Source: Candidatus Roizmanbacteria bacterium (lineage in GTDB: Bacteria; Patescibacteriota; Microgenomatia; UBA1406; GWC2-37-13). Taken from it: a DNA stretch of 64,000 bases. A program made the position numbers and the translations under genes. The number at the start of each line of letters is the position of its first letter. Position 1 is the first letter of the stretch. The notes under the pieces are model-generated. The model made no database searches. It saw only the letters and a program-made list of their open reading frames with translations, and was not told where the DNA came from. The stretch covers positions 154,924 through 218,923 of the forward strand of contig JACRJL010000003.1 in the NCBI GenBank assembly GCA_016215445.1, written 5' to 3'. This document shows, in pieces, positions 3,508 to 60,962 of the stretch.

Positions 3508-4743
3508 TCAAGAGGATTTTAGACCTCCGAAGGCGATCCGGTCGATGACGGTTTTTTTTGACTTTATCATCAAGGCCGGGGCGACAACGTACTCTCCCCA
3601 CCTATTGTTGATTTCATCAACTGCCTTGGAAACTTTTCTTTTTTTGTCGATTTCGTCTTCAAACAAACCCGGAGTCAAATCATTTACCGGCGCCAAACTG
3701 AAACAGGTAACCGCTATTTTTCTGACGATTTTTTCCTCCGGTTGCTGTGAGAAAATCATCATTACTTTTTTGAATAACTCCTGGGTTGTAAAGGAGGGTT
3801 CATTGAATTTTTTTCCTTTATGCCAAAAACTCCAGTCGTCATAAAGTAGGCAGAGATGGATTCCTAGGGCCGTTTGGTCGGCCTCGCGCAACCGCCGCCC
3901 CATTTTTTCTGTAAGCATCATAATAAGGGAAGAGAGTTTTTCCCGGTTGCTGGTTTTTTGTCCGAGAGAATATTCCTGACCGAAACTTTTTCTATCAGAT
4001 TGAAAGTCGTCGACTTCGAAGCCGCGCAGTCTTAAGTACCAGTAGTGACCGGCGATGCTTTTGAAAACGATTTTTCTTAAAAAATTATCTTCCGCTTCCA
4101 AAAACTCCAATGGAGTAAAAATTCCGGCGGCATTGAGGCGAGCTTGATAACGGAAGTTGATTCCATTAAGGTCAACTAACTTCAATGACGAAAAAATTGA
4201 TGGTAAGTTTTTGTAATCTATGACATCAAGGCCGTCTGGTTTGTGAAGTGAGGAGGCGAGTTTGGCAAGAAATCGGTTGGTGGCGATGCCGATGTTGCAG
4301 GAAATCCATTCTCCGATTTCTTCCCGAAACCTTTTTTTTATTTCCTGCCCGATTTCGACAAGAGTTTTTTTCCTATAGTCGTCCATTTCGGAGAAGTCCA
4401 TTACCAACTCGTCGATTGATTTTGGGACGACTTGCGGTGAATAACATTCACAGATTCTTTTGAACTTTGAGTGGACGTCGCGAACAAGGAGAGGATCATT
4501 TTCACGAACAATGACGTCGGGACAGATAACTTTTGCCTCTTTTACTCTCATGCCAGTTTTTATTCCCAATTTTTTTGCTTCAATTGAAGGAGCGAGGATG
4601 CAGCCTCCGAGAGTCGGGTAAGCGGCGATCACAATTGGTTTTCCCCTAAGATGGGGGTTGGCTTGCTGTTCAACCGTGGCAAAACAGGAATTCAAATCAA
4701 TATGCATGATCTTAGGATCATTCTGATTAAGTTGAATTGCCAT
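3508..4743 (-). CDS. Y-family (translesion) DNA polymerase, DinB/UmuC/ImpB family
   Basis: The N-terminus MHIDLNSCFATVEQQANPHLRGKPIVI matches the Y-family catalytic motif. It is 411 aa with a GGAGG SD 8 nt upstream. Confidence 0.9.
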   Translation of the reverse strand: MAIQLNQNDPKIMHIDLNSCFATVEQQANPHLRGKPIVIAAYPTLGGCILAPSIEAKKLGIKTGMRVKEAKVICPDVIVRENDPLLVRDVHSKFKRICECYSPQVVPKSIDELVMDFSEMDDYRKKTLVEIGQEIKKRFREEIGEWISCNIGIATNRFLAKLASSLHKPDGLDVIDYKNLPSIFSSLKLVDLNGINFRYQARLNAAGIFTPLEFLEAEDNFLRKIVFKSIAGHYWYLRLRGFEVDDFQSDRKSFGQEYSLGQKTSNREKLSSLIMMLTEKMGRRLREADQTALGIHLCLLYDDWSFWHKGKKFNEPSFTTQELFKKVMMIFSQQPEEKIVRKIAVTCFSLAPVNDLTPGLFEDEIDKKRKVSKAVDEINNRWGEYVVAPALMIKSKKTVIDRIAFGGLKSS

Positions 4744-5757: not shown

Positions 5758-6420
5758 GTGAAAACAAAAATAAATAAATATATCTTCACCGAAGATATAA
5801 ACTATTTAAAAACGGACAAAATTTCTATTTGGGGAAAAGGGGATTTAAAGACATTGAATATTTTATCCAAGTCGGAAATTAAAGGTATTTGGTTAAATCT
5901 GGCTGCGGGAGACGGTCGGTACAATAATATATTACTTAATAAGGCAGACAAGGTGGTCGCGGCTGACATAGACGGAGGCGCCCTAAAAAAACTTTATAAA
6001 AATACTCCAAAAGATCTTCAGTCAAAGCTTGAGACGAAGATTCTAAATATGACAGAACGATTTTCTTTTGGAGATAATTATTTCGATGGCATTTTTTGCA
6101 CAGGTACTCTTTATTTGTTTCCAAAGGAAATTCTTAAGAAAATTTTTAAAGAAATAAGCCGAGTTTTGAAAAAAAACGGTTTTTTAATCTTTGATTTCGC
6201 TACAGACAGGAAAAAGGTTCGTCTTGACGGCAGAAAAATAACCGACAAAAGAATTGTTTACAAGATTGAAAGCGCCGGGGAAATGATAAAAGATCTTTTG
6301 CCGAATTATAGCCATGAAATAATCAGATCAAAAGTTCCTGAAGAATTAATCAAAATAGGAAAAAGGCAGTATCTTTTTTCCTGTAATTTTTTACTGGTTA
6401 AGGGAGTTAAACTGAAATAG
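5758..6420 (+). CDS. class I SAM-dependent methyltransferase
   Basis: Motif I LNLAAGDGRY. GTG start lies 7 nt after TGaTAAAAT. Confidence 0.75.
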   Translation: MKTKINKYIFTEDINYLKTDKISIWGKGDLKTLNILSKSEIKGIWLNLAAGDGRYNNILLNKADKVVAADIDGGALKKLYKNTPKDLQSKLETKILNMTERFSFGDNYFDGIFCTGTLYLFPKEILKKIFKEISRVLKKNGFLIFDFATDRKKVRLDGRKITDKRIVYKIESAGEMIKDLLPNYSHEIIRSKVPEELIKIGKRQYLFSCNFLLVKGVKLK

Positions 6421-7576
6421 TTTTTTTCCTGAAGATTATAAAAACCGCCAGGGCGATAAATGCCATAAGACTTCCGTAATAAAAAGTGAAGGACGGACTT
6501 ATTTTATACCAAATCAATCCGCCGATTGAGGACGCTAGAAAAGCGCCGACTGCCATAAGGGTTTGATGCAGTCCGAAATAACTTCCGGACTCTTTTTTAT
6601 CTATAAATTCAGAGACATAGGCTTTAGAAACACTGTCGGTAAAGGCGATGTAGATTCCGTAAATTGGAAATATAAACCAAACGAATATCGGATCTTTAAT
6701 CAGTCCCAAAGCAAGGTAAACCGCGGAAAAAACTAGCAACCCGGCGGCAAAGACTTTTTTTGCGCCGATCTTGTCAGCCAGTTTACCGGCCGGCGCGGCA
6801 AAAATGGCTTGGGAAATATTATAAAGAACATAGGTCAAAGTAACGAGGATGGAAGTCAACCCCAACCCTTTGGCGCGAAGAATTAAAAAAGCGTCGGAGC
6901 TGTTGCCTAAAGCAAAGATAAAGTTCACCAAGAGAAATAATTTTAAATGGGGGTTGATTGAACGAAAATCTATTTTCACAAAATGTCTCTTTTCATCGGT
7001 TTTTGCTAAGGGTTTTTCTTTGACGTTGAATACCAAAAGAATCAAGGCAAAAACAGAGGGAATAAAGGCGAGAAAAAAAACCAGACGCATATTTTCTTTC
7101 AGAAGATATAAAAATATTAAGCCGAGGATCGGTCCGAAAACAGCTCCCAGACTATCCAGTGCCCGGTGGAATCCGAAAATAAAACCCCTGTTTCCGGCAG
7201 TGGTGTTCTCAAGAAGGATGCTGTCCCGCGGTGCCGTTCTTAATCCTTTGCCAGTCCTGTCAATAAAGCGGGCAAAGAGAACCAGCGGCCATGATTGGGC
7301 AAGCCCGATTAAAATTTTTGAAACGGCCCCGAAAGAATAACCTAAGGTGACAAAAATTTTCCGTCTTTGAAAATAATCGGAAAGAGCTCCGAAAACATAT
7401 TTTCCTCCGGCAGCAGTAGCTTCAGCGATGCCTTCGATCAATCCTATAACCGGAATTGATGTTTTTAAAACTGTTGTTAGAAAGATCGGGACAATAGGAT
7501 AGATCATTTCCGCCGCCAGATCGTTGAAGAAGCTGACTATACCGAGGACAACTACATTTCGAGGGATTTTTTTCAT
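6407..7576 (-). CDS. MFS transporter
   Basis: 389 aa with about 12 predicted TM segments and an MFS-like loop (DRTGKGLRTAPRD). Confidence 0.85.
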   Translation of the reverse strand: MKKIPRNVVVLGIVSFFNDLAAEMIYPIVPIFLTTVLKTSIPVIGLIEGIAEATAAGGKYVFGALSDYFQRRKIFVTLGYSFGAVSKILIGLAQSWPLVLFARFIDRTGKGLRTAPRDSILLENTTAGNRGFIFGFHRALDSLGAVFGPILGLIFLYLLKENMRLVFFLAFIPSVFALILLVFNVKEKPLAKTDEKRHFVKIDFRSINPHLKLFLLVNFIFALGNSSDAFLILRAKGLGLTSILVTLTYVLYNISQAIFAAPAGKLADKIGAKKVFAAGLLVFSAVYLALGLIKDPIFVWFIFPIYGIYIAFTDSVSKAYVSEFIDKKESGSYFGLHQTLMAVGAFLASSIGGLIWYKISPSFTFYYGSLMAFIALAVFIIFRKKTISV

Positions 7577-11666: not shown

Positions 11667-11740
11667 CGGAGTGTAGTTCAGATGGCCAGAACGTACGCTT
11701 TGGGAGCGTAAGGTCGCGAGTTCAAGTCTCGCCACTCCGA
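11667..11740 (+). tRNA. tRNA-Pro (anticodon UGG), no encoded CCA
   Basis: Cloverleaf: acceptor CGGAGTG/CACTCCG, D arm GTTC..GAAC, anticodon arm TACGC-TTTGGGA-GCGTA, T arm GCGAG-TTCAAGT-CTCGC. Confidence 0.9.
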
Positions 11741-19576: not shown

Positions 19577-20968
19577 ATGACAAGAACGAGGATTGCTCCT
19601 TCACCAACAGGTCAGGACGTTCATGTTGGTAGTATTGCTGCTGCTTTAATGAACTTTGCTTGGGCCAAAAAAAATAACGGCCAGTTCATTATAAGAATCG
19701 AAGACACTGATAGAACAAGATTGGTTAAAGGCGGCGAAGAAAAAATGCTTGATACTTTTGATAGAATTGGATTAAAGGCCGACGAATCTCCTAAAGTAGG
19801 TGGACCCTATGCTCCTTATCGTCAGTCTGAAAGACTGGAAATCTATAAAAAGCATGCGGAGGAACTTGTCGTGAAAGGAAAAGCTTATTATTGTATTTGT
19901 GCTCCAGACAGGCTGACAAAAATGAGGGAAGTGCAGCAGGCGAAAAAGCAGATTCCCAAATATGACCGTCAGTGTTTCCTGAATCAGGAAGAGATAGTAA
20001 AAAAAATTATGGATAACAAACTACCCTATGTTATAAGGCTTTTGATTCCAGAGGGTAAGATTGAGTTTGAGGACGTTGTCCGGGGAAAAATAACCATCGA
20101 TAATAGCAATCTTGATGACCAGGTACTTTTGAAATCAGACGGTTTTCCTACTTATCATTTGGGAGTAGTTGTCGATGACCACTTAATGAAAATAACTCAT
20201 ATTATTAGGGGGGAAGAATGGTTACCGTCGACTCCAAAACACATCATTTTATATCAGGCTTTTGAGTGGGATCTACCTGTTTTTGCCCATATATCTTTAC
20301 TACGAAATCCAGACAAATCAAAACTGTCAAAAAGAAAAAATCCGGTTTGGACTTCTTGGTATTTGGATCAAGGGATTTTTTCCGAAGCCCTCCTTAATTA
20401 TCTGGCCTTGATGGGTTGGAGTCATCCGGAAGGAAAAGAAATTTTTTCCCTTGACGAGTATATAAAAGTATTTGACATTAAAGACATCCAAAAAACTGCT
20501 CCGGTTTTTGACCCGGTCAAACTGGAATGGATGAACGGAGTGTACTTAAGAAAGTATCCAGTATCCAGTATAAAGTATTTAGTATTGGAATTTTATAAAA
20601 AACAAAAGATTAATTTGCCAGAAGAAATTGTTGAAAAAACAATTCCATTAATCAAAGAAAGAATTAAAAAACTTTCCGACTATCTTCCGCTTTGCGAATT
20701 TTTCTTTAAAAAACCTAATATTTATGAAGTTGATCTAAGTAATAAAAAAGAATTATTAAAACAAATAAAAGATGAATTAGAAAAAATATCCGACTGGAAA
20801 GCAAATAATATCGGTGAATCAATGCAAGGTTTAGTAAAGAATCTGGGGATTAAGGCCGGAGAATTTTTTATGATTATTCGTATCTCCATGAGCGGTAAAA
20901 AAATCTCGCCACCCTTAAATGAGTCTATGGAGATTCTTGGGAAAGAAGAATGTTTGAAGAGACTTTAG
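19577..20968 (+). CDS. gltX: glutamate--tRNA ligase
   Basis: RIAPSPTG..HVGS (HIGH-like) and KLSKRK (KMSKS) motifs. Confidence 0.93.
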   Translation: MTRTRIAPSPTGQDVHVGSIAAALMNFAWAKKNNGQFIIRIEDTDRTRLVKGGEEKMLDTFDRIGLKADESPKVGGPYAPYRQSERLEIYKKHAEELVVKGKAYYCICAPDRLTKMREVQQAKKQIPKYDRQCFLNQEEIVKKIMDNKLPYVIRLLIPEGKIEFEDVVRGKITIDNSNLDDQVLLKSDGFPTYHLGVVVDDHLMKITHIIRGEEWLPSTPKHIILYQAFEWDLPVFAHISLLRNPDKSKLSKRKNPVWTSWYLDQGIFSEALLNYLALMGWSHPEGKEIFSLDEYIKVFDIKDIQKTAPVFDPVKLEWMNGVYLRKYPVSSIKYLVLEFYKKQKINLPEEIVEKTIPLIKERIKKLSDYLPLCEFFFKKPNIYEVDLSNKKELLKQIKDELEKISDWKANNIGESMQGLVKNLGIKAGEFFMIIRISMSGKKISPPLNESMEILGKEECLKRL

Positions 20969-30410: not shown

Positions 30411-30589
30411 AAGACTCGGAAACGTAATTTTTATCACACGAGAGTCTTTCCCTCGCCTAAAGGCGGGGCCCCTCTCGAAAGTGAAAAAATCACATTGCCT
30501 CGTCTTTTAAAAGCGAAGATACCAAATTTATTTGCGCTTTTGGGGTGTAGGGGCTCCCACTGCGTCAAAAAATTTCGGTATCGAGCTTT
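30411..30589 (+). repeat. structured GC-rich intergenic repeat, copy A (long form)
   Basis: Shares AAGACTC..ATTTTTATCAC..GAAAGTGAAAAAAT..CCTCGTCTT..CAAATTT..CG(G/T)T(A/G)TCGAGCTTT with 59109-59227. Confidence 0.75.
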
Positions 30590-30595
30590 ATAAAT

Positions 30596-35368: not shown

Positions 35369-36196
35369 TCAAAACAGGTGTCTCGCTTTCCTGCGTTTTA
35401 AAAATATTAAATATATTATTCCCACATAAACCAACATTATTCCAAGTCGCGCGAGGCTGAATTCCTGGTCAATTCCAAAAAAACTTCTGATAAAGTGACC
35501 AACGACTCCGTGTTTATCGGGTAGAAAATTGAGGGGAGTCGCCAGTATTTTTGACAGTTCTATATTAAATCCGTGTTCAAAAAGCTCGGTAAAGCCGTTT
35601 TGGACGAGGGCGGCTCCCAAAAGAATAATCATATATTCGGTAACCTTGAAGACTTTTCCTATAGGGAATTTTATATACGCAAAAAAAGTCAGAATTCCTA
35701 GCGCCGTTGCTGAGGCAAATCCGATAATAAGTCCTAACATGTTTTGCATGAAAGCGGAAAATAGAGAAGTGCTGGCCGTAAACAAAGCGATTTCAAATCC
35801 TTCGCGGAAGACCAAAAAGACAATCGTAAAAAATAAAGACAGATCAAAGGTATTTTCCTGAAGTTTATTGTGGGCTTCAATAATAGATTCTCCTTGGCCG
35901 CGTCTGATAACGCCGTGGAGAGAGAAGACTACGTAGGCCAAGAAAAAACCCGAAAAAATCATCAGATAACTTTCTAAAAGTTCGGCATTTTTTTCGGTTA
36001 AAACTCCTCGAGCGCTATCGCCGTAAATGAAAGTTATCGTCGCCAAAAGAAAAGAGAGGATGACTCCCGTGATAGCAGCAATGGCGATCTCGACCTCTTT
36101 TTTAATTTTTAGTTTCTTCGAAATTCCCAAAAAAACTCCGACGATTAAAAATGCCTCCAAGAACTCCCTGAAAGCGATCACGGCTGTAGTAATCAT
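35369..36196 (-). CDS. FTR1 family iron permease
   Basis: Two REXXE motifs (REFLE, REGFE) and 7 TM segments. Confidence 0.85.
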   Translation of the reverse strand: MITTAVIAFREFLEAFLIVGVFLGISKKLKIKKEVEIAIAAITGVILSFLLATITFIYGDSARGVLTEKNAELLESYLMIFSGFFLAYVVFSLHGVIRRGQGESIIEAHNKLQENTFDLSLFFTIVFLVFREGFEIALFTASTSLFSAFMQNMLGLIIGFASATALGILTFFAYIKFPIGKVFKVTEYMIILLGAALVQNGFTELFEHGFNIELSKILATPLNFLPDKHGVVGHFIRSFFGIDQEFSLARLGIMLVYVGIIYLIFLKRRKARHLF

Positions 36197-46705: not shown

Positions 46706-46984
46706 TTAGTCTTCATTTTCTTCCTCATCATCCTCGTGTTCAGGTAATTCCGAGTGTCCCGGAGGTCCGGTGTGGGTATGGTGGTCGTCGCCAAAACCCC
46801 AACCCGGTTTGACTGAATTTCCCGGAGGTCCGGTGTGGGTATGATTATCATCACCGTTACCCCAACCTGGTCTCGTCCCGCCTGAATGCGAGTTACCGGC
46901 AACAACACTTCGCCCAACAAGGGCTAAAGCGGCTGCAAGAAGACCGACGACAATCAAAACCCTTAATTTTTTCATCGTTTTCAC
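46706..46984 (-). CDS. secreted His-rich tandem-repeat peptide with acidic tail
   Basis: Signal peptide, two copies of PGWG(N/F)GDD(N/H)HTHTGPPG(N/H)S, and EHEDDEEENED. Strong AAGGGGGTGA SD. Confidence 0.75.
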   Translation of the reverse strand: MKTMKKLRVLIVVGLLAAALALVGRSVVAGNSHSGGTRPGWGNGDDNHTHTGPPGNSVKPGWGFGDDHHTHTGPPGHSELPEHEDDEEENED

Positions 46985-48899: not shown

Positions 48900-48972
48900 T
48901 TGGGGAGCTAGGATTCGAACCTAGAGTCGCGCCGCTCCAAAGGCGGGCGTGTTACCGTTACACCACTCCCCA
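48900..48972 (-). tRNA. tRNA-Gln (anticodon UUG), no encoded CCA
   Basis: The reverse complement folds as TGGGGAG..GTGT-AACGGTA-ACAC..CCCGC-CTTTGGA-GCGGC..CTAGG-TTCGAAT-CCTAG-CTCCCCA. Confidence 0.88.
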
Positions 48973-52919: not shown

Positions 52920-53041
52920 GGCCCTGGCTACGACCTACTTTCCCTACCCCTTTTCGGGGTCAGTATCATCGGCGCTGACTCGTTTCACTTCCTTGTTCGG
53001 GATGGAAAAGGGTGGTACCAAGTCGCTTCAATAACCAGGGC
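52920..53041 (-). rRNA. rrf: 5S ribosomal RNA (stand-alone)
   Basis: The reverse complement reads GCCCTGGTTATTGAAGCGACTTGGTACCACCC..CCATCCCGAACAAGGAAGTGAAAC..GCGCCGATGATACT..GGGAAAGTAGGTCGTAGCCAGGGC. Helix I and conserved loop sequences are present. Confidence 0.9.
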
Positions 53042-58069: not shown

Positions 58070-59110
58070 ATGTTCAATCCTACTTTTAATATTACCAACA
58101 AGACTCTGACTAATATTTCCAAGATCGAAGCCGCCGAGGAAGTGATTAAGCATTCGCCGCTTCTTCCCTTGTGGGAAAAACAGTTCAAAGAAGACGCCAT
58201 AATAAGATCGGCCTATCACGGTACTCATATTGAAGGCAACGCCCTTCATAAAGATGACGCCAAAGATATTCTTGAAGGTAGGCAAGTAATCGGCAGACCG
58301 AGAGACATTCAGGAGATTATAAACTATAGAAAGGTAATTGATTTTATTGACGAAGAAGCTAAGCGCCGAATTGATAAAATTACTGAGCTTCTTATAAAGA
58401 AACTACACAGAACCATTACAGAGAAAATTTTATCGACAGATCAAGGAGAGTACAGAAATAAGCAGGTAATAATTAGAAACTCTTCAACAGGGGAGGTGAC
58501 CTTTCGGCCGCCGCCTCCATTGGAAGTCTCTTTCTTGATGAGAGAGTTTGTCTATTGGCTCAACCGCGATGACAAAGACAAAATTCACCCGGTTTTAAAA
58601 GCCGGCATCTGTCATCACGAGCTTGTCCGTATTCATCCTTTTATAGATGGTAATGGTCGGGTAGCCAGGGTTTTGGCAACATTGATTTTGCTTTTGGGAG
58701 GTTATGACATTAGACGATTTTTTTCCCTTGAGGAGTATTATGACAAAGACGCCGTCGCTTACTATCACAATCTGCAGAAAGCCTCTTCAGGAGATCTGAC
58801 GACCTGGCTCGAGTATTTTACCTATGGGGCGGCAATCGAGTTTGAAAAAATAAAGGAAAAGATTTTGAAGCTTTCCAAAGACGTCAAATTGAAAGAAAAA
58901 TTCGGAGGTCAGCAGATCTATCTGACGGAAAGACAGATGAAGCTTGTCGAGTATCTTCAGGAAGTCGGTTATATTCAGAATCAGATCTTTGCCAATGTTT
59001 TCCCCCAAGTTTCCGAGGACACGGTTCTTCGCGATCTGCAGGATTTGATAAAAAAAGGACTCATTAAAAAAGTTGGGAGCACGAAAGCGGCACGTTATGT
59101 TATCGTATAA
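58070..59110 (+). CDS. Fic family protein with C-terminal winged-helix domain
   Basis: HPFIDGNGRVARV Fic motif, N-terminal THIEGN, C-terminal wHTH-like segment (TERQMKLVEYLQEVGYIQNQ...). Confidence 0.9.
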   Translation: MFNPTFNITNKTLTNISKIEAAEEVIKHSPLLPLWEKQFKEDAIIRSAYHGTHIEGNALHKDDAKDILEGRQVIGRPRDIQEIINYRKVIDFIDEEAKRRIDKITELLIKKLHRTITEKILSTDQGEYRNKQVIIRNSSTGEVTFRPPPPLEVSFLMREFVYWLNRDDKDKIHPVLKAGICHHELVRIHPFIDGNGRVARVLATLILLLGGYDIRRFFSLEEYYDKDAVAYYHNLQKASSGDLTTWLEYFTYGAAIEFEKIKEKILKLSKDVKLKEKFGGQQIYLTERQMKLVEYLQEVGYIQNQIFANVFPQVSEDTVLRDLQDLIKKGLIKKVGSTKAARYVIV

Positions 59111-59227
59111 GACTCAGCGGTATCAATTTTTATCACAGCGGGGCCCCTGCCCCGAAAGTGAAAAAATTGCTCCCGCCTCGTCTTCAAAGGAAAAAACGAA
59201 GACAACAAATTTCCGTTGTCGAGCTTT
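59109..59227 (+). repeat. structured GC-rich intergenic repeat, copy B (short form)
   Basis: Homologous to 30411-30589. Begins within the Fic stop codon and ends 7 nt before the ligase ATG. Confidence 0.75.
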
Positions 59228-59234
59228 TTGACAT

Positions 59235-60962
59235 ATGAAATTTTCAGAATTAGCAATATACTTCGACAAAATCAGTAGCGTTTCTTCCCGTCTGGAAATT
59301 ACCCGGATTCTGGCAGAGCTTTTTAATAAATTGACCCCGGATGAAATCGAAAAAGTAGTTTACCTTCTTCAGGGTCGAGTCAGGCCAGCGTACGAAGGGA
59401 TTGATTTCGGAATGGCGGAAAGAACAATGATTAAGGCTGCTCTATCGGCACTGAATATAGAGAAAAGTTTTTTTGAAAAAGAATTCAAAAAGATAGGGGA
59501 TTTGGGTGAGACAGTTGAACATTTCAAGAAACAGTACACTTCTTTTGAAGAAAGAGATTGGGAGGCAGTTGAAGTTTATAATTTTTTTTATAGATTGGCG
59601 ACGGCGTCAGGTTCAGGATCACAAGACGTCAAGGTGAGTTTGCTTGCCCAGTTGATTCGTCAGCTTGACGCTTTGTCTTCACGTTTTTTGGTTCGGTTAC
59701 CAACAGGAGACATCAGGATGGGTTTTTCCGATATGACAGTTCTTGATGCTTATTCATGGATGCTCAAAGGAGACAAAAGTTTACGGCCAATGATTGAAAA
59801 AGCTTATCATGTCAGGCCTGAATTGGGCTATATCGGTCGAGTAATTAAAGAAAAAGGCGTTGAGTCATTGGATAAAATCGGCCCCACAGTTTTTACTCCG
59901 ATTATTATGATGAGGGCGGAGAGGCTATCATCAGCGGATGAGATATTAAAACAAATCGGTACATGTTTGGTTGAACCAAAATTTGACGGCTTTAGGCTAC
60001 AAATTCATAAAAAAGGTAACGAAGTCAGGTTATTCTCCCGAAGCTTGGAGGACGTTACTTATATGTATCCTGATATTGTCGAAGGGGCAAAAAAACAAAT
60101 TCAATCAAGAGAGATCATAATTGAGGGTGAAGCAATAGGGTATAACGTTAAAACAGGCGAATTTCTTCCCTTTCAGGAGACAGTACAGCGAAAAAGAAAA
60201 TATGAAATAGAAAAGATGGCTAAAGAAATCCCTTTACGGTTATTCTCCTTTGAATTATTGTTTAAAAATGGAGTTAATTTCTTGGCTAAACCTTTTGTTG
60301 AAAGAAGAAAGGCGCTGGAAGAATCAATCACAACCACAAGAGATCTTTCCAAAGACACAATTGTTATTGCTGACCAGGAAGAAGTCAGTCAAACAGAAAA
60401 ACTCGAGAAACTGTTTGACGAAGCAGTAGAAAAAGGCTTGGAAGGAGTTTTGGCAAAAAAAATCACCGGCATTTACAAACCAGGCGCTAGAGAGTGGAAT
60501 TGGATTAAATACAAAAGAAGCTATTCGGCAAAAATTCAGGACACTATTGACTGTTTGGTGATGGGATATGATTTCGGGAAAGGTAAAAGAACGGTTTTTG
60601 GAATCGGTGCTTTTTTAGTCGGAGTCCTGGATGAAAAGGGGGATAAGTTTGTCACGATTGCGAAAATAGGGACAGGGTTGACTGATGAAGAGTGGAAACA
60701 ACTTCAAGTCAAAAGTCAAAAGTCAAAAGTCAAAAACAAACCCAATAATTATTCAGTTAATAAAATGATGAAATGTGATGTTTGGGTGGTGCCTTCGATT
60801 GTCGTTGAGATTAGGGCCGATGAGATAACAAAATCTCCGGTTCATACGGCCGGACTGGCTTTGAGATTCCCCAGATTAGAGCGGTTTAGAGATGACAAAA
60901 AACCAGAAGACGCGACCAATCTAAAAGAACTGACTAAAATGAGTGGGTTTTCAGCATATTAA
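59235..60962 (+). CDS. ATP-dependent DNA ligase (archaeal/eukaryal Lig1-like, with N-terminal DNA-binding domain)
   Basis: Adenylation motif EPKFDGFRLQIH and later motifs (EGEAI, LEGVLAKK, WIKYK). 575 aa. Confidence 0.9.
   Translation: MKFSELAIYFDKISSVSSRLEITRILAELFNKLTPDEIEKVVYLLQGRVRPAYEGIDFGMAERTMIKAALSALNIEKSFFEKEFKKIGDLGETVEHFKKQYTSFEERDWEAVEVYNFFYRLATASGSGSQDVKVSLLAQLIRQLDALSSRFLVRLPTGDIRMGFSDMTVLDAYSWMLKGDKSLRPMIEKAYHVRPELGYIGRVIKEKGVESLDKIGPTVFTPIIMMRAERLSSADEILKQIGTCLVEPKFDGFRLQIHKKGNEVRLFSRSLEDVTYMYPDIVEGAKKQIQSREIIIEGEAIGYNVKTGEFLPFQETVQRKRKYEIEKMAKEIPLRLFSFELLFKNGVNFLAKPFVERRKALEESITTTRDLSKDTIVIADQEEVSQTEKLEKLFDEAVEKGLEGVLAKKITGIYKPGAREWNWIKYKRSYSAKIQDTIDCLVMGYDFGKGKRTVFGIGAFLVGVLDEKGDKFVTIAKIGTGLTDEEWKQLQVKSQKSKVKNKPNNYSVNKMMKCDVWVVPSIVVEIRADEITKSPVHTAGLALRFPRLERFRDDKKPEDATNLKELTKMSGFSAY

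What the first reader, a model, noticed from the sequence alone, without database searches (positions are those of the whole stretch)
59109..59227. Second copy of the structured repeat, with compensatory base-pair substitutions
This 119-nt short form starts inside the Fic stop codon and ends 7 nt before the ATP-dependent ligase ATG. The outer helix (ATTTTTATCAC 59126-36 with GTGAAAAAAT 59158-67) is identical to copy A. The inner helix is CGGGGC-CCCT-GCCCCG (59139-54), against CGAGAG...CTCTCG in copy A. That gives three positions changed on both strands with pairing preserved (A-T to G-C twice, G-C to C-G once). This pattern indicates selection on RNA or DNA secondary structure rather than on sequence. 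A further perfect hairpin, GTCTTC-N12-GAAGAC (59180-59203), corresponds to a weaker one in copy A. The downstream genes (efflux adaptor and DNA ligase) are functionally unrelated. That argues against a ligand-specific riboswitch and for a mobile or structural element, a transcription insulator/terminator, or an sRNA family.
Basis: seen in the sequence. Interest (0 to 1): 0.7.

Follow-up and report, generated by a model that had tools for sequence, protein, structure and literature searches.

The report
Palindromic mobile repeat of Roizmanbacteria
The hairpin between the Fic and DNA-ligase genes is one copy of a short palindromic repeat scattered through Roizmanbacteria (candidate phyla radiation) genomes, both between genes and in frame inside housekeeping genes, much like the "selfish" palindromic elements of Rickettsia; it is not a gene-specific RNA switch.

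Summary
Every helix is at the stated coordinates, and copy B (59109-59227) is homologous to copy A (about 30411-30590). Neither is a gene-specific leader. A covariance model and a genome scan show a dispersed family of 76-98 nt hairpin units in Roizmanbacteria/Microgenomates MAGs. Each unit has P1 AAGAC/GTCTT, a conserved UC/UC loop, a variable covarying stem, TTTTT(A)TCAC/GTGAAAAAA, and one of two apical types. Covariation is strong (13 of 19 pairs changed on both sides; 0 of 500 shuffles). Of 51 units, 25 lie in frame inside long ORFs (LeuRS, Tgt, QueA, LepA, TatD, Fmt and others). The other 26 are intergenic in every orientation. The "long form" of copy A is a doublet of two inverted units. 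The 3' part of copy B is an inverted unit that has lost its apex. Orthologous Fic-ligase and kinase-adaptor junctions in related genomes are empty (0-33 nt), carry remnants, or carry other variants, so both window copies are insertions. The complementary strand folds better, whatever the direction of host transcription, which points to a strand-specific property of the element itself. Closest analogue: Rickettsia palindromic elements. I found no published description for candidate phyla radiation bacteria. The mobilising mechanism is unknown.

The parts
59109..59184 (+). Unit B1, a complete type II unit. P1 is AAGAC 59109-13 with GTCTT 59180-84. The UC/UC internal loop is at 59114-15 and 59178-79. 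P2 is AGCGGTATCAA 59116-26 with TTGCTCCCGCC 59167-77. P3 is TTTTT(A)TCAC 59127-36 with GTGAAAAAA 59158-66. The apical hairpin CGGGGC-CCCT-GCCCCG is at 59139-54.
   Evidence: Sequence; covariance model R1 75.7 bits, E 3.6e-15; fold z -4.8; family alignment A3
59193..59227 (-). Unit B2, the remnant of a second unit in inverted orientation with its apex deleted. Its reverse complement is AAAGC-TC-GACAAC-GGAAATTT-GTTGTC-TTC-GTTTT. It ends 7 nt before the ligase ATG. Its GACAAC/GTTGTC stem (59201-59220) also scores as a weak bidirectional terminator-like hairpin.
   Evidence: Alignment A5 with full units from L040, L029, L055 and L025; terminator-like scan
30411..30506 (+). Unit A1, a complete type I unit. 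P1 is AAGAC 30411-15 with GTCTT 30502-06, and the apical domain CGAGAG..CCCTCGCC-TAAA-GGCGGGG..CTCTCG is extended. It is the left half of the copy A doublet.
   Evidence: R1 81.6 bits
30510..30590 (-). Unit A2, a diverged unit in inverted orientation (GATACC-type P2, P3 changed to GACGC/GCGC).
   Evidence: R1 hit 30505-30595 on the minus strand, 48 bits, E 1.3e-8; alignments A3 and A5
58070..59110 (+). Upstream gene, a Fic/DOC family protein with a DeoR-like HTH. Its stop codon TAA overlaps the first two bases of unit B1. Its C-terminus is unchanged relative to orthologues.
   Evidence: Pfam; orthologous junctions
59235..60962 (+). Downstream gene, an ATP-dependent DNA ligase. In orthologues it starts 0-33 nt after the Fic stop when the site is empty.
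   Evidence: Pfam

Best explanation
Copy B is a member of a family of short, non-autonomous palindromic repeats. They resemble MITEs and, more closely, Rickettsia palindromic elements (RPEs). The family has spread within genomes of Candidatus Roizmanbacteria and related Microgenomates.

The basic unit is a 76-98 nt imperfect hairpin. Units occur singly or as inverted doublets. They have inserted between genes, often right at a stop codon, and in frame inside protein-coding genes, where they are carried as 25-35 extra codons.

In the window, one full unit plus an apically deleted inverted unit fill the whole Fic-ligase spacer. A doublet fills most of the kinase-adaptor spacer.

Shown here:
- family membership;
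- dispersal to unrelated contexts;
- presence or absence at orthologous sites;
- in-frame residence in genes;
- covariation of all helices;
- a strand asymmetry intrinsic to the element.

Inferred:
- The element propagates as DNA.
- The hairpin of one particular strand is what the unknown mobilising or maintaining machinery needs. It has tandem G.A pairs, G.T/G.U wobbles and CGAAG loops.
- Pairing may alternatively be kept up by arm-to-arm correction.
- Effects on Fic or ligase expression are incidental, at most a 3' hairpin or weak terminator for Fic.
For: 1. Family. The pattern scan found about 40 true copies in Roizmanbacteria/Microgenomates/Patescibacteria MAGs, several per genome. Model R1 found 51 units in held loci and 3 in the window.
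2. Structure. 93.9% of cells are paired, 13 of 19 pairs changed on both sides, and 0 of 500 shuffles match. The covariation score is 0.35 against about 0.07 when partners are slid. P2 arms fit their own partner (-7.75 against -3.25 kcal/mol, permutation p < 1e-4).
3. No gene or orientation specificity. 25 units lie inside long ORFs (21 sense, 4 antisense) and 26 are intergenic in all orientation classes.
4. In-frame residence. Host ORFs continue with homology on both sides. Pfam domains span the inserts in LepA, TatD, SpoU, Fmt, LeuRS, a P-type ATPase and others. QueA and Tgt (two inserts) show them as insertions relative to solved homologues.
5. Frames. The same nucleotides are read in three frames (FLSHES, IFITRES, NFYHTRVS), with the downstream frame restored.
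6. Insertion. The Fic-ligase junction is empty in L073, L077, L074 and L089, carries remnants in L066 and L078, and carries a doublet in L072/L006. The kinase-adaptor junction is 28-64 nt in relatives against 208 nt in the window.
7. The doublet occurs in at least five unrelated flank contexts.
8. No Rfam match on either strand.
Against: - No transposase or other mobilising gene was identified.
- No target-site duplication could be recognised.
- No longer autonomous element with the same arms was seen in held loci.
- Several insertions are shared at the same site by different species (LeuRS, QueA, Tgt, the L012/L042 doublet). Much of the distribution could therefore be old and vertical rather than recent transposition.
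- Maintained pairing long after insertion, as in the orthologous L012/L042 copies with complementary changes, is not what a decaying selfish element is expected to show. It leaves room for a function or for arm-to-arm conversion.
- Translation through the in-gene copies is inferred from reading-frame maintenance, not observed.
Confidence: 0.82

Rival explanations
1. A cis-regulatory RNA in the 5' leader of the downstream gene (riboswitch, attenuator or protein-binding leader). AAGAC/GTCTT and GTCTTC/GAAGAC would act as alternative pairings.
For: Both window copies lie upstream of and co-oriented with the next gene and end a few nt before its ATG. The structure is conserved and covarying. GTCTT can pair either upstream or downstream.
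Against: Half of the units are inside ORFs. Intergenic units occur antisense, between convergent genes and between divergent genes. Downstream genes are unrelated. Orthologous junctions lack the element altogether. The downstream 'alternative' arm belongs to a second, inverted unit. There is no Rfam match.
Confidence: 0.03
2. An RNA-level element. Either it is a family of small structured RNAs transcribed from the units (possibly from the complement strand), or it is an intervening sequence cut out of host transcripts, so that in-gene copies are never translated.
For: Helices covary, variable-length apical hairpins are tolerated, and the strand asymmetry includes tandem G.A and G.U pairs typical of RNA.
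Against: All 25 in-gene copies keep the host frame open. When the arm length shifts the internal frame, it is restored before the 3' end, which would be unnecessary if the units were removed. The better-folding strand is antisense to the host mRNA in 21 of 25 in-gene copies. No promoter-like site is associated with the units. The ascertainment is partly circular, because out-of-frame copies would have been classed as intergenic. However, in the two window cases the flanking ORFs belong to different gene families; the flanks of the other same/same intergenic copies were not checked by homology.
Confidence: 0.06
3. A domesticated structural element that works as a transcription terminator or insulator, or as an mRNA 3'-end stabiliser, as proposed for REP/BIME sequences. 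This would be a secondary role and does not exclude a selfish origin.
For: Many intergenic copies begin 0-13 nt after a stop codon. The remnant hairpin at 59201-59220 is followed by T-rich tails on both strands and is called terminator-like.
Against: The full units are not followed by a U tract and are not called as terminators. In-gene copies cannot be terminators. Close relatives do without the element at the same junctions.
Confidence: 0.1
4. A remnant of duplicated coding sequence, or a recombination site of the integron attC type.
For: The units encode recurrent peptides inside proteins. attC sites are also structure-conserved, strand-selective hairpins.
Against: The same nucleotide sequence is read in three different frames and in antisense, so the nucleotide sequence is conserved and not a peptide. 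Flanks are unrelated. There are no RYYYAAC/GTTRRRY cores in alignment A3. There is no array: only two sites 29 kb apart in the window.
Confidence: 0.01

Closest known systems
Rickettsia palindromic elements (RPE-1 to RPE-10; Ogata et al. 2000 Science 290:347, as summarised in PMC10969869)
   Same: Both are short palindromic repeats with conserved hairpin potential. Both have many copies per small genome, occur in intergenic regions and very often in frame inside unrelated housekeeping genes, and add a recurrent peptide. Neither has a transposase, and shared insertions decay differently in related species.
   Different: The host phylum is unrelated, and sequence similarity to RPE consensus sequences was not compared here. 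Units are shorter (76-98 nt against about 100-150 bp). There are two interchangeable apical types and inverted doublets. One protein can carry two units (Tgt). One loop of QueA holds a whole series of variants across species. A clear strand asymmetry of folding is seen.
REP / BIME / REPIN elements mobilised by RAYT (HUH Y1) transposases
   Same: Both are imperfect palindromes with strand-specific features. Both occur as singlets and as inverted doublets that recur as a unit at different loci. Both often lie just after stop codons.
   Different: REPs are 20-40 nt and strictly extragenic. Here units are 76-98 nt and half are intragenic. No RAYT gene could be looked for genome-wide.
Other bacterial MITE-like repeats (ERIC/IRU, Neisseria Correia elements, pneumococcal BOX/RUP/SPRITE)
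   Same: Small size, terminal inverted repeats, size variants produced by internal insertions or deletions, and hairpin formation in transcripts. ERIC is occasionally intragenic (PMC10969869).
   Different: Those families are mostly intergenic. Correia elements have TA duplications and IHF sites. No target duplication was recognisable here.
Integron attC sites
   Same: Structure rather than sequence is conserved in the central part. Folding is strand-selective, and there are extrahelical or mismatched conserved positions.
   Different: No R''/R' core sequences, no cassette array, no integrase, and the element occurs in frame within genes.

Membership tests
RPE-like in-frame palindromic repeats (a functional kind, not homology to RPE) | Multicopy palindromic repeat of about 100 nt with conserved hairpin potential | tested here: met
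   51 units in held loci and 3 in the window, with covarying helices
RPE-like in-frame palindromic repeats (a functional kind, not homology to RPE) | Frequent in-frame insertion in unrelated protein-coding genes with the ORF maintained | tested here: met
   25 of 51 units lie inside long ORFs. Pfam domains and PDB homologues span the inserts. Copy B itself is intergenic.
Rickettsia palindromic elements proper | Sequence homology to RPE-1 to RPE-10 consensus sequences | not testable with these tools
   No RPE consensus sequences or Rickettsia chromosomes are held. Membership by descent is not claimed.
MITE (non-autonomous DNA transposon) | Terminal inverted repeats, small size, no coding capacity of its own | tested here: met
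   P1/P2 arms are inverted repeats. Units are 76-98 nt and doublets about 185 nt.
MITE (non-autonomous DNA transposon) | Copies at unrelated loci and presence/absence at orthologous sites | tested here: met
   Flanks are unrelated. Orthologous junctions are empty for both window copies.
MITE (non-autonomous DNA transposon) | Target-site duplication | tested here: inconclusive
   No consistent direct repeat flanks the units. A/T-rich palindromic ends (TAAAG...CTTTA) make a TA/TTAA-type duplication undecidable.
MITE (non-autonomous DNA transposon) | A cognate autonomous element with the same ends that encodes a transposase | tested here: inconclusive
   No separated left and right arms enclosing a gene were found in the held loci. 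Whole genomes could not be scanned.
REP/REPIN-RAYT | Short (20-40 nt) strictly extragenic palindromes | tested here: not met
   Unit size is 76-98 nt and half are intragenic.
REP/REPIN-RAYT | A RAYT gene in the genome, flanked by repeats | not tested
   Only 8-20 kb loci were available, and the window ORFs were not all scanned.
Riboswitch / cis-regulatory leader | Sense orientation in the 5' UTR of a coherent set of genes | tested here: not met
   Units occur in all orientations, inside ORFs and next to unrelated genes. No Rfam family matches.
Integron attC | R''/R' core sites (RYYYAAC ... GTTRRRY) and arrays next to intI | tested here: not met
   The cores are absent from alignment A3. There are two isolated sites 29 kb apart in the window.
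Intrinsic terminator | G+C-rich stem immediately followed by a U tract | tested here: not met
   Full units are not called. Only the remnant stem 59201-59220 gives a weak call, on both strands.

The most novel reading that the evidence does not exclude
The units are not passive junk. The sequence would be tuned so that insertion in the sense orientation is translatable in all frames. Such an element would act as a generator of surface-loop diversity in essential proteins of these reduced genomes, as the series of variants at one QueA loop suggests. A variant of this reading is that the hairpins are processed at the RNA level.
Probability: 0.12. Interest if true: 0.85.

Novelty: new member of a known kind. 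Interest (0 to 1): 0.55.

Why it matters
[quoted passage not shown] An independent, structurally well-defined case in candidate phyla radiation bacteria would show that the phenomenon recurs in reduced genomes.

It would also explain part of the unexplained insertions and length variation in proteins of these bacteria. Close QueA homologues, for example, range from 335 to 407 aa.

It has practical consequences. Such repeats inflate or break MAG assemblies (several contigs here end inside units). They mislead searches for structured RNAs. They add recurrent peptides to annotated proteins.

Finally, the strand-specific hairpin with maintained pairing gives a concrete handle for finding how such elements move.

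Tried and rejected
- The exact-protein look-up of the ligase found nothing, and the same look-up for QueA P0046 also found nothing.
- A protein search with the insert peptide failed twice: the query was too short, and a concatenated peptide shared too few words with any candidate (which cost one search).
- RNAalifold on the plain MAFFT alignment recovered only part of the structure, because the variable stem is misaligned. I replaced it with a hand-specified structure and a covariance-model realignment.
- Length modulo 3 from P1 to P1 is uninformative, because the true insertion boundaries are not known.
- The search for orphan arms that might bound an autonomous element found only a few partial units.
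- A regular expression for the second GC-rich repeat was too strict.
- The viral-contig scan gave one chance match, and the phage collection gave none.
- The AlphaFold model of QueA P0002 was of low quality overall (mean pLDDT 59). The unstructured, low-confidence stretch 250-305 that contains the insert is therefore not usable as evidence.
- I considered and rejected hammerhead, twister and other ribozymes, SRP, 6S and Y RNA, and the DnaA box (TTTATCACA matches only 7 of 9 positions). The grounds were direct reading of the sequence and the negative Rfam searches.
Full report
**1. The observation**

The region reads exactly as described.
- The Fic/DOC gene (58070-59110; Pfam) ends with TAA at 59108-59110.
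- AAGAC starts at 59109.
- ATTTTTATCAC (59126-36) pairs with GTGAAAAAAT (59158-67) around CGGGGC-CCCT-GCCCCG (59139-54).
- GTCTTC-N12-GAAGAC lies at 59180-59203.
- The ATP-dependent ligase starts at 59235.

Copy A was located through the shared 11-mer at 30427 and aligns block by block with copy B.

The similarity is not chance.
- The gapped pattern is not expected in shuffled sequence.
- Both segments fold far better than shuffles, with z of -4.8 and -5.65.
- BLAST and nhmmer find only these two places in the window.
- Rfam has nothing on either strand, even at E up to 10.

**2. A family, not a pair**

One scan of species-representative genomes used the two conserved cores (TTTTTATCAC N8-38 GAAAGTGAAAAA). 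It returned 65 loci.
- About 40 carry all the other features of the element.
- Nearly all of those come from Candidatus Roizmanbacteria, Microgenomates or unclassified Patescibacteria MAGs, with up to six exact-pattern copies per genome.
- The remaining hits are bare pattern matches in unrelated bacteria.

The window is itself a Roizmanbacteria genome.
- It is syntenic with PFOE01000036 (L006) at about 73% nucleotide identity.
- Its adaptor protein is 100% identical to an NCBI Roizmanbacteria protein on a 604 kb contig.

**3. Anatomy**

The unit is one long imperfect hairpin. From base to apex it consists of:
- P1 (AAGAC/GTCTT and covarying variants such as AAAGC/GCTTT, AAAAT/ATTTT, GAGGC/GCCTC and TGGAG/CTCCT);
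- a nearly invariant 2x2 loop UC/UC;
- P2, about 10 bp of variable sequence;
- P3, TTTTT-(A)-TCAC/GTGA-AAAAA with a bulged A. It covaries in diverged members (GTCGC/GCGA, GACGC/GCGC, GACGG/CCGC);
- an apical domain of two kinds. Type I is A-CGAG-AGUCUC-[variable hairpin]-CCC-CUCG-AAA. Type II is AG-CGGGG-[loop]-CCCCG-AAA.

Copy A carries type I and copy B carries type II.

I built a covariance model from 41 copies with a hand-specified structure. It found 53 matches in the held genome loci, two of them reverse-strand echoes of the same copy.

On that alignment:
- 93.9% of cells are paired;
- 13 of 19 pairs show changes on both sides, in 124 cells;
- no shuffle of 500 reaches any of these values;
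- sliding the partners drops the covariation score from 0.35 to about 0.07.

The alignment was fitted to the model, so these numbers lean towards the structure. An independent test does not depend on column alignment. The P2 5' arm binds its own 3' arm much better than the 3' arms of other units (-7.75 against -3.25 kcal/mol, permutation p < 1e-4).

**4. What the 'long form' and the 3' hairpin are**

The model hits window 30505-30595 on the minus strand at 48 bits. The extension of copy A is therefore a second, diverged unit in inverted orientation, and copy A is a doublet.

The same doublet (type I unit, short spacer, inverted GATACC-type unit) recurs in L006, L012, L042, L046, L047 and L055. 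Apart from the orthologous pair L012/L042, the flanks show no meaningful similarity; the only other match is a 42-aa, 40%-identity stretch between window_right and L055_left.

The 3' part of copy B aligns as reverse complement with the basal arms of full units and lacks about 45 nt of apex: AAAGC-TC-GACAAC-GGAAATTT-GTTGTC-TTC-GTTTT. The remnant stem (59201-59220) is the only piece that resembles an intrinsic terminator, and only weakly, on both strands.

**5. Where the units sit**

Of 51 units, 26 are intergenic:

| Class | Units |
|---|---|
| Co-oriented with both neighbours | 9 |
| Antisense to both neighbours | 6 |
| Upstream neighbour sense, downstream antisense (convergent) | 3 |
| Upstream neighbour antisense, downstream sense (divergent) | 2 |
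| At contig ends | 6 |

The neighbouring ORF often ends within 0-13 nt of the unit.

The other 25 lie inside long ORFs, 21 in sense and 4 in antisense, with the frame open and homology on both sides.

Hosts include:
- leucyl-tRNA synthetase, at two different sites;
- tRNA-guanine transglycosylase;
- QueA;
- LepA;
- a P-type ATPase;
- a thioredoxin-reductase-like flavoprotein;
- peptidase M16;
- methionyl-tRNA formyltransferase;
- a SpoU methylase;
- TatD.

Pfam domain matches run across the inserts. Against solved structures, QueA of L051 carries the unit in the loop after RTLE(S/T). Tgt of L029 carries two units, at residues 104-151 and 334-361.

The same nucleotides are read as FLSHES..., IFITRES... 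or NFYHTRVS..., depending on the length of the P2 arm. The frame is restored before ...PLESEK. The conserved entity is therefore the nucleotide sequence and structure, not a peptide. The host frame is under selection, which argues that the units are translated rather than removed (inference).

**6. One site through many genomes**

Among 121 close QueA homologues (62-81% identity, 335-407 aa), the stretch from VAVGTT to FKMVD, which contains the loop between RTLES and KTDLFIFPPY, ranges from 34 to 79 residues. It holds:
- type II units;
- type I units;
- frame-shifted versions;
- a short-apex version (KFFDGKxQTAKNL, matching the GACGG...CCGC units);
- internally deleted versions (NFLSSEKNL);
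- near-empty states.

QueA P0046 carries a type II unit. It lies on a contig of the same length (604,246 bp) as the one that holds the window's adaptor protein, so it is probably from the window's own genome.

**7. The window copies are insertions**

A metagenome scan with the ligase gave 80 loci. The states of the Fic-ligase junction are as follows:

| Locus | State of the junction |
|---|---|
| L073, L077 | TAA + 4 nt + ATG |
| L074 | overlapping stop and start (ATGA) |
| L089 | 8 nt |
| L081-L085 | about 10-25 nt |
| L066, the closest relative (84% ligase identity) | remnant AAACTCGGTATCGAGCTTT |
| L078 | remnant TAATTCGGCAACGCAATTT |
| L072 / L006 | a doublet whose full type I unit is in the opposite orientation to the window's |
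| L067-71, L075, L076, L079 | unrelated spacers, one of them another palindromic repeat |

For copy A, the response regulator-kinase-adaptor-ABC-FtsX operon is conserved in relatives with 77-78% identical adaptors. The kinase-adaptor spacer is 28, 33 or 64 nt in those relatives, against 208 nt in the window.

Model R1 found a unit in only one of the 80 ligase loci, which total 883 kb. About 26 of those loci come from close relatives. The distribution is therefore patchy. R1 is biased to the core used for seeding, so this count is a lower bound.

The orthologous doublets L012 and L042 have conserved flanks. Their P2 stems differ, and the changes are complementary, for example GATACC/GGTATC against GACACC/GGTGTC. 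Pairing is therefore kept up, or copies are replaced, after insertion.

**8. Strand asymmetry**

- As RNA it is more stable in 46 of 51 units, by 6.2 kcal/mol on average (Wilcoxon p = 4e-9).
- With DNA parameters it is more stable in 45 of 50.
- Minimum-energy folds contain 79 G.U pairs on the complement against 20 on the written strand.

Read directly from the sequence, on the complement strand:
- UC/UC becomes a tandem G.A in the favourable C-GA-G context;
- the conserved A.C and C.A mismatches become wobbles;
- many type I apices read CGAAG or GCGAAGC.

The asymmetry follows the polarity of the element, not host transcription. Antisense and opposite-strand copies show it too. The counts are not phylogenetically independent.

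Single units are co-oriented within loci (7 of 8 multi-unit loci). Their written strand lies on the G-rich strand of the locus in 29 of 33 loci (p = 3e-4). This is confounded with gene orientation.

I read this as a strand-specific hairpin intrinsic to the element. That is more easily reconciled with a DNA-level (single-strand) process or an element-borne constraint than with a sense-mRNA function. This step is inference.

**9. Comparison with known systems**

The closest analogue is the Rickettsia palindromic element family, the textbook case of palindromic repeats inserted in frame in many genes (review PMC10969869).
- REP/REPIN elements share the singlet and doublet organisation but are shorter and extragenic.
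- ERIC, Correia and BOX elements are mostly intergenic.
- attC sites share structure-based, strand-selective conservation but not the core sites or the genomic organisation.

Full-text searches combining candidate phyla radiation, Patescibacteria, Microgenomates or Roizmanbacteria with MITE, palindromic element or in-frame insertion returned no description of such an element.

**10. Verdict**

The finding is real, and its cautious reading as a mobile or structural element is right. It is not a riboswitch or an sRNA locus. It is one insertion of a palindromic repeat family, resembling the Rickettsia elements, that is apparently undescribed for these bacteria. It is therefore a new member of a known kind.

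The family-level result carries the interest: half the copies lie in frame in essential genes, pairing is maintained, and the structure is strand-specific. How the element moves, and whether the in-gene copies are translated, remain to be shown.

Noticed in passing
L079 just upstream of the ligase start (about 5960-6100); L015 about 7290-7320; L051 about 6400-6440; L004 about 4000-4050: A second, G+C-rich palindromic repeat of the type GTCATYCCCGCGRAGGCGGGRATCCAG occurs in several of the same genomes. In L079 it sits at the very Fic-ligase junction that holds copy B in the window. Peptides such as VIPSKAKRR in some QueA homologues look like its in-frame translation.
   Followed up: partly
QueA homologues P0001-P0120: Close QueA homologues (62-81% identity) differ by insertions at 14 alignment blocks. 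Recurrent unrelated peptides include LRQGYGGQA, VSGRGLGVRSYKL, DQRSLQGKNIKER, INRKGPPSL and YKGAPPSSRLRR. This suggests several further families of in-frame repeats in these genomes.
   Followed up: partly
L067/L068, L069-L071/L080, L075/L088 upstream of the ligase: The Fic-ligase spacer in these relatives is filled by other low-complexity, word-repeating sequences (for example atagaaaatagaaacatagttaatagaaaatag and tagtccataaagtcgaaagtctataaagtccgtaaag). The junction seems to be a hot spot for different insertions.
   Followed up: no
window 46752-46871: Two tandem copies of a 57-nt direct repeat, 81% identical and 63 nt apart (GAGTGTCCCGGAGGTCCGGTGTGGGTATGG...), overlap a 92-aa ORF on the minus strand.
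   Followed up: no
window 52922-53039 (-): A 5S rRNA gene has no 23S or 16S rRNA gene called anywhere in the 64 kb window. The only other RNA genes found are two tRNAs, at 11667-11740 and 48900-48972.
   Followed up: no
L009, L010, L015, L026, L027, L045: MAGs labelled 'uncultured Gammaproteobacteria' (binchicken co-assemblies) carry this element. One of them, L045, has the same Tgt/Fmt arrangement of units as the unclassified MAG WY2.bin75 (L040). The taxonomic labels of these records look wrong.
   Followed up: no
L047, L060, L030 (contig ends): Several MAG contigs end inside or right next to a unit. This is consistent with the repeat breaking short-read assemblies.
   Followed up: no
window 20845-20922 (+) and 35573-35652 (-): There is a weak sub-threshold match to the covariance model (15.8 bits, E 0.59) and to the nhmmer profile (E 0.053). 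These may be decayed units or chance.
   Followed up: no
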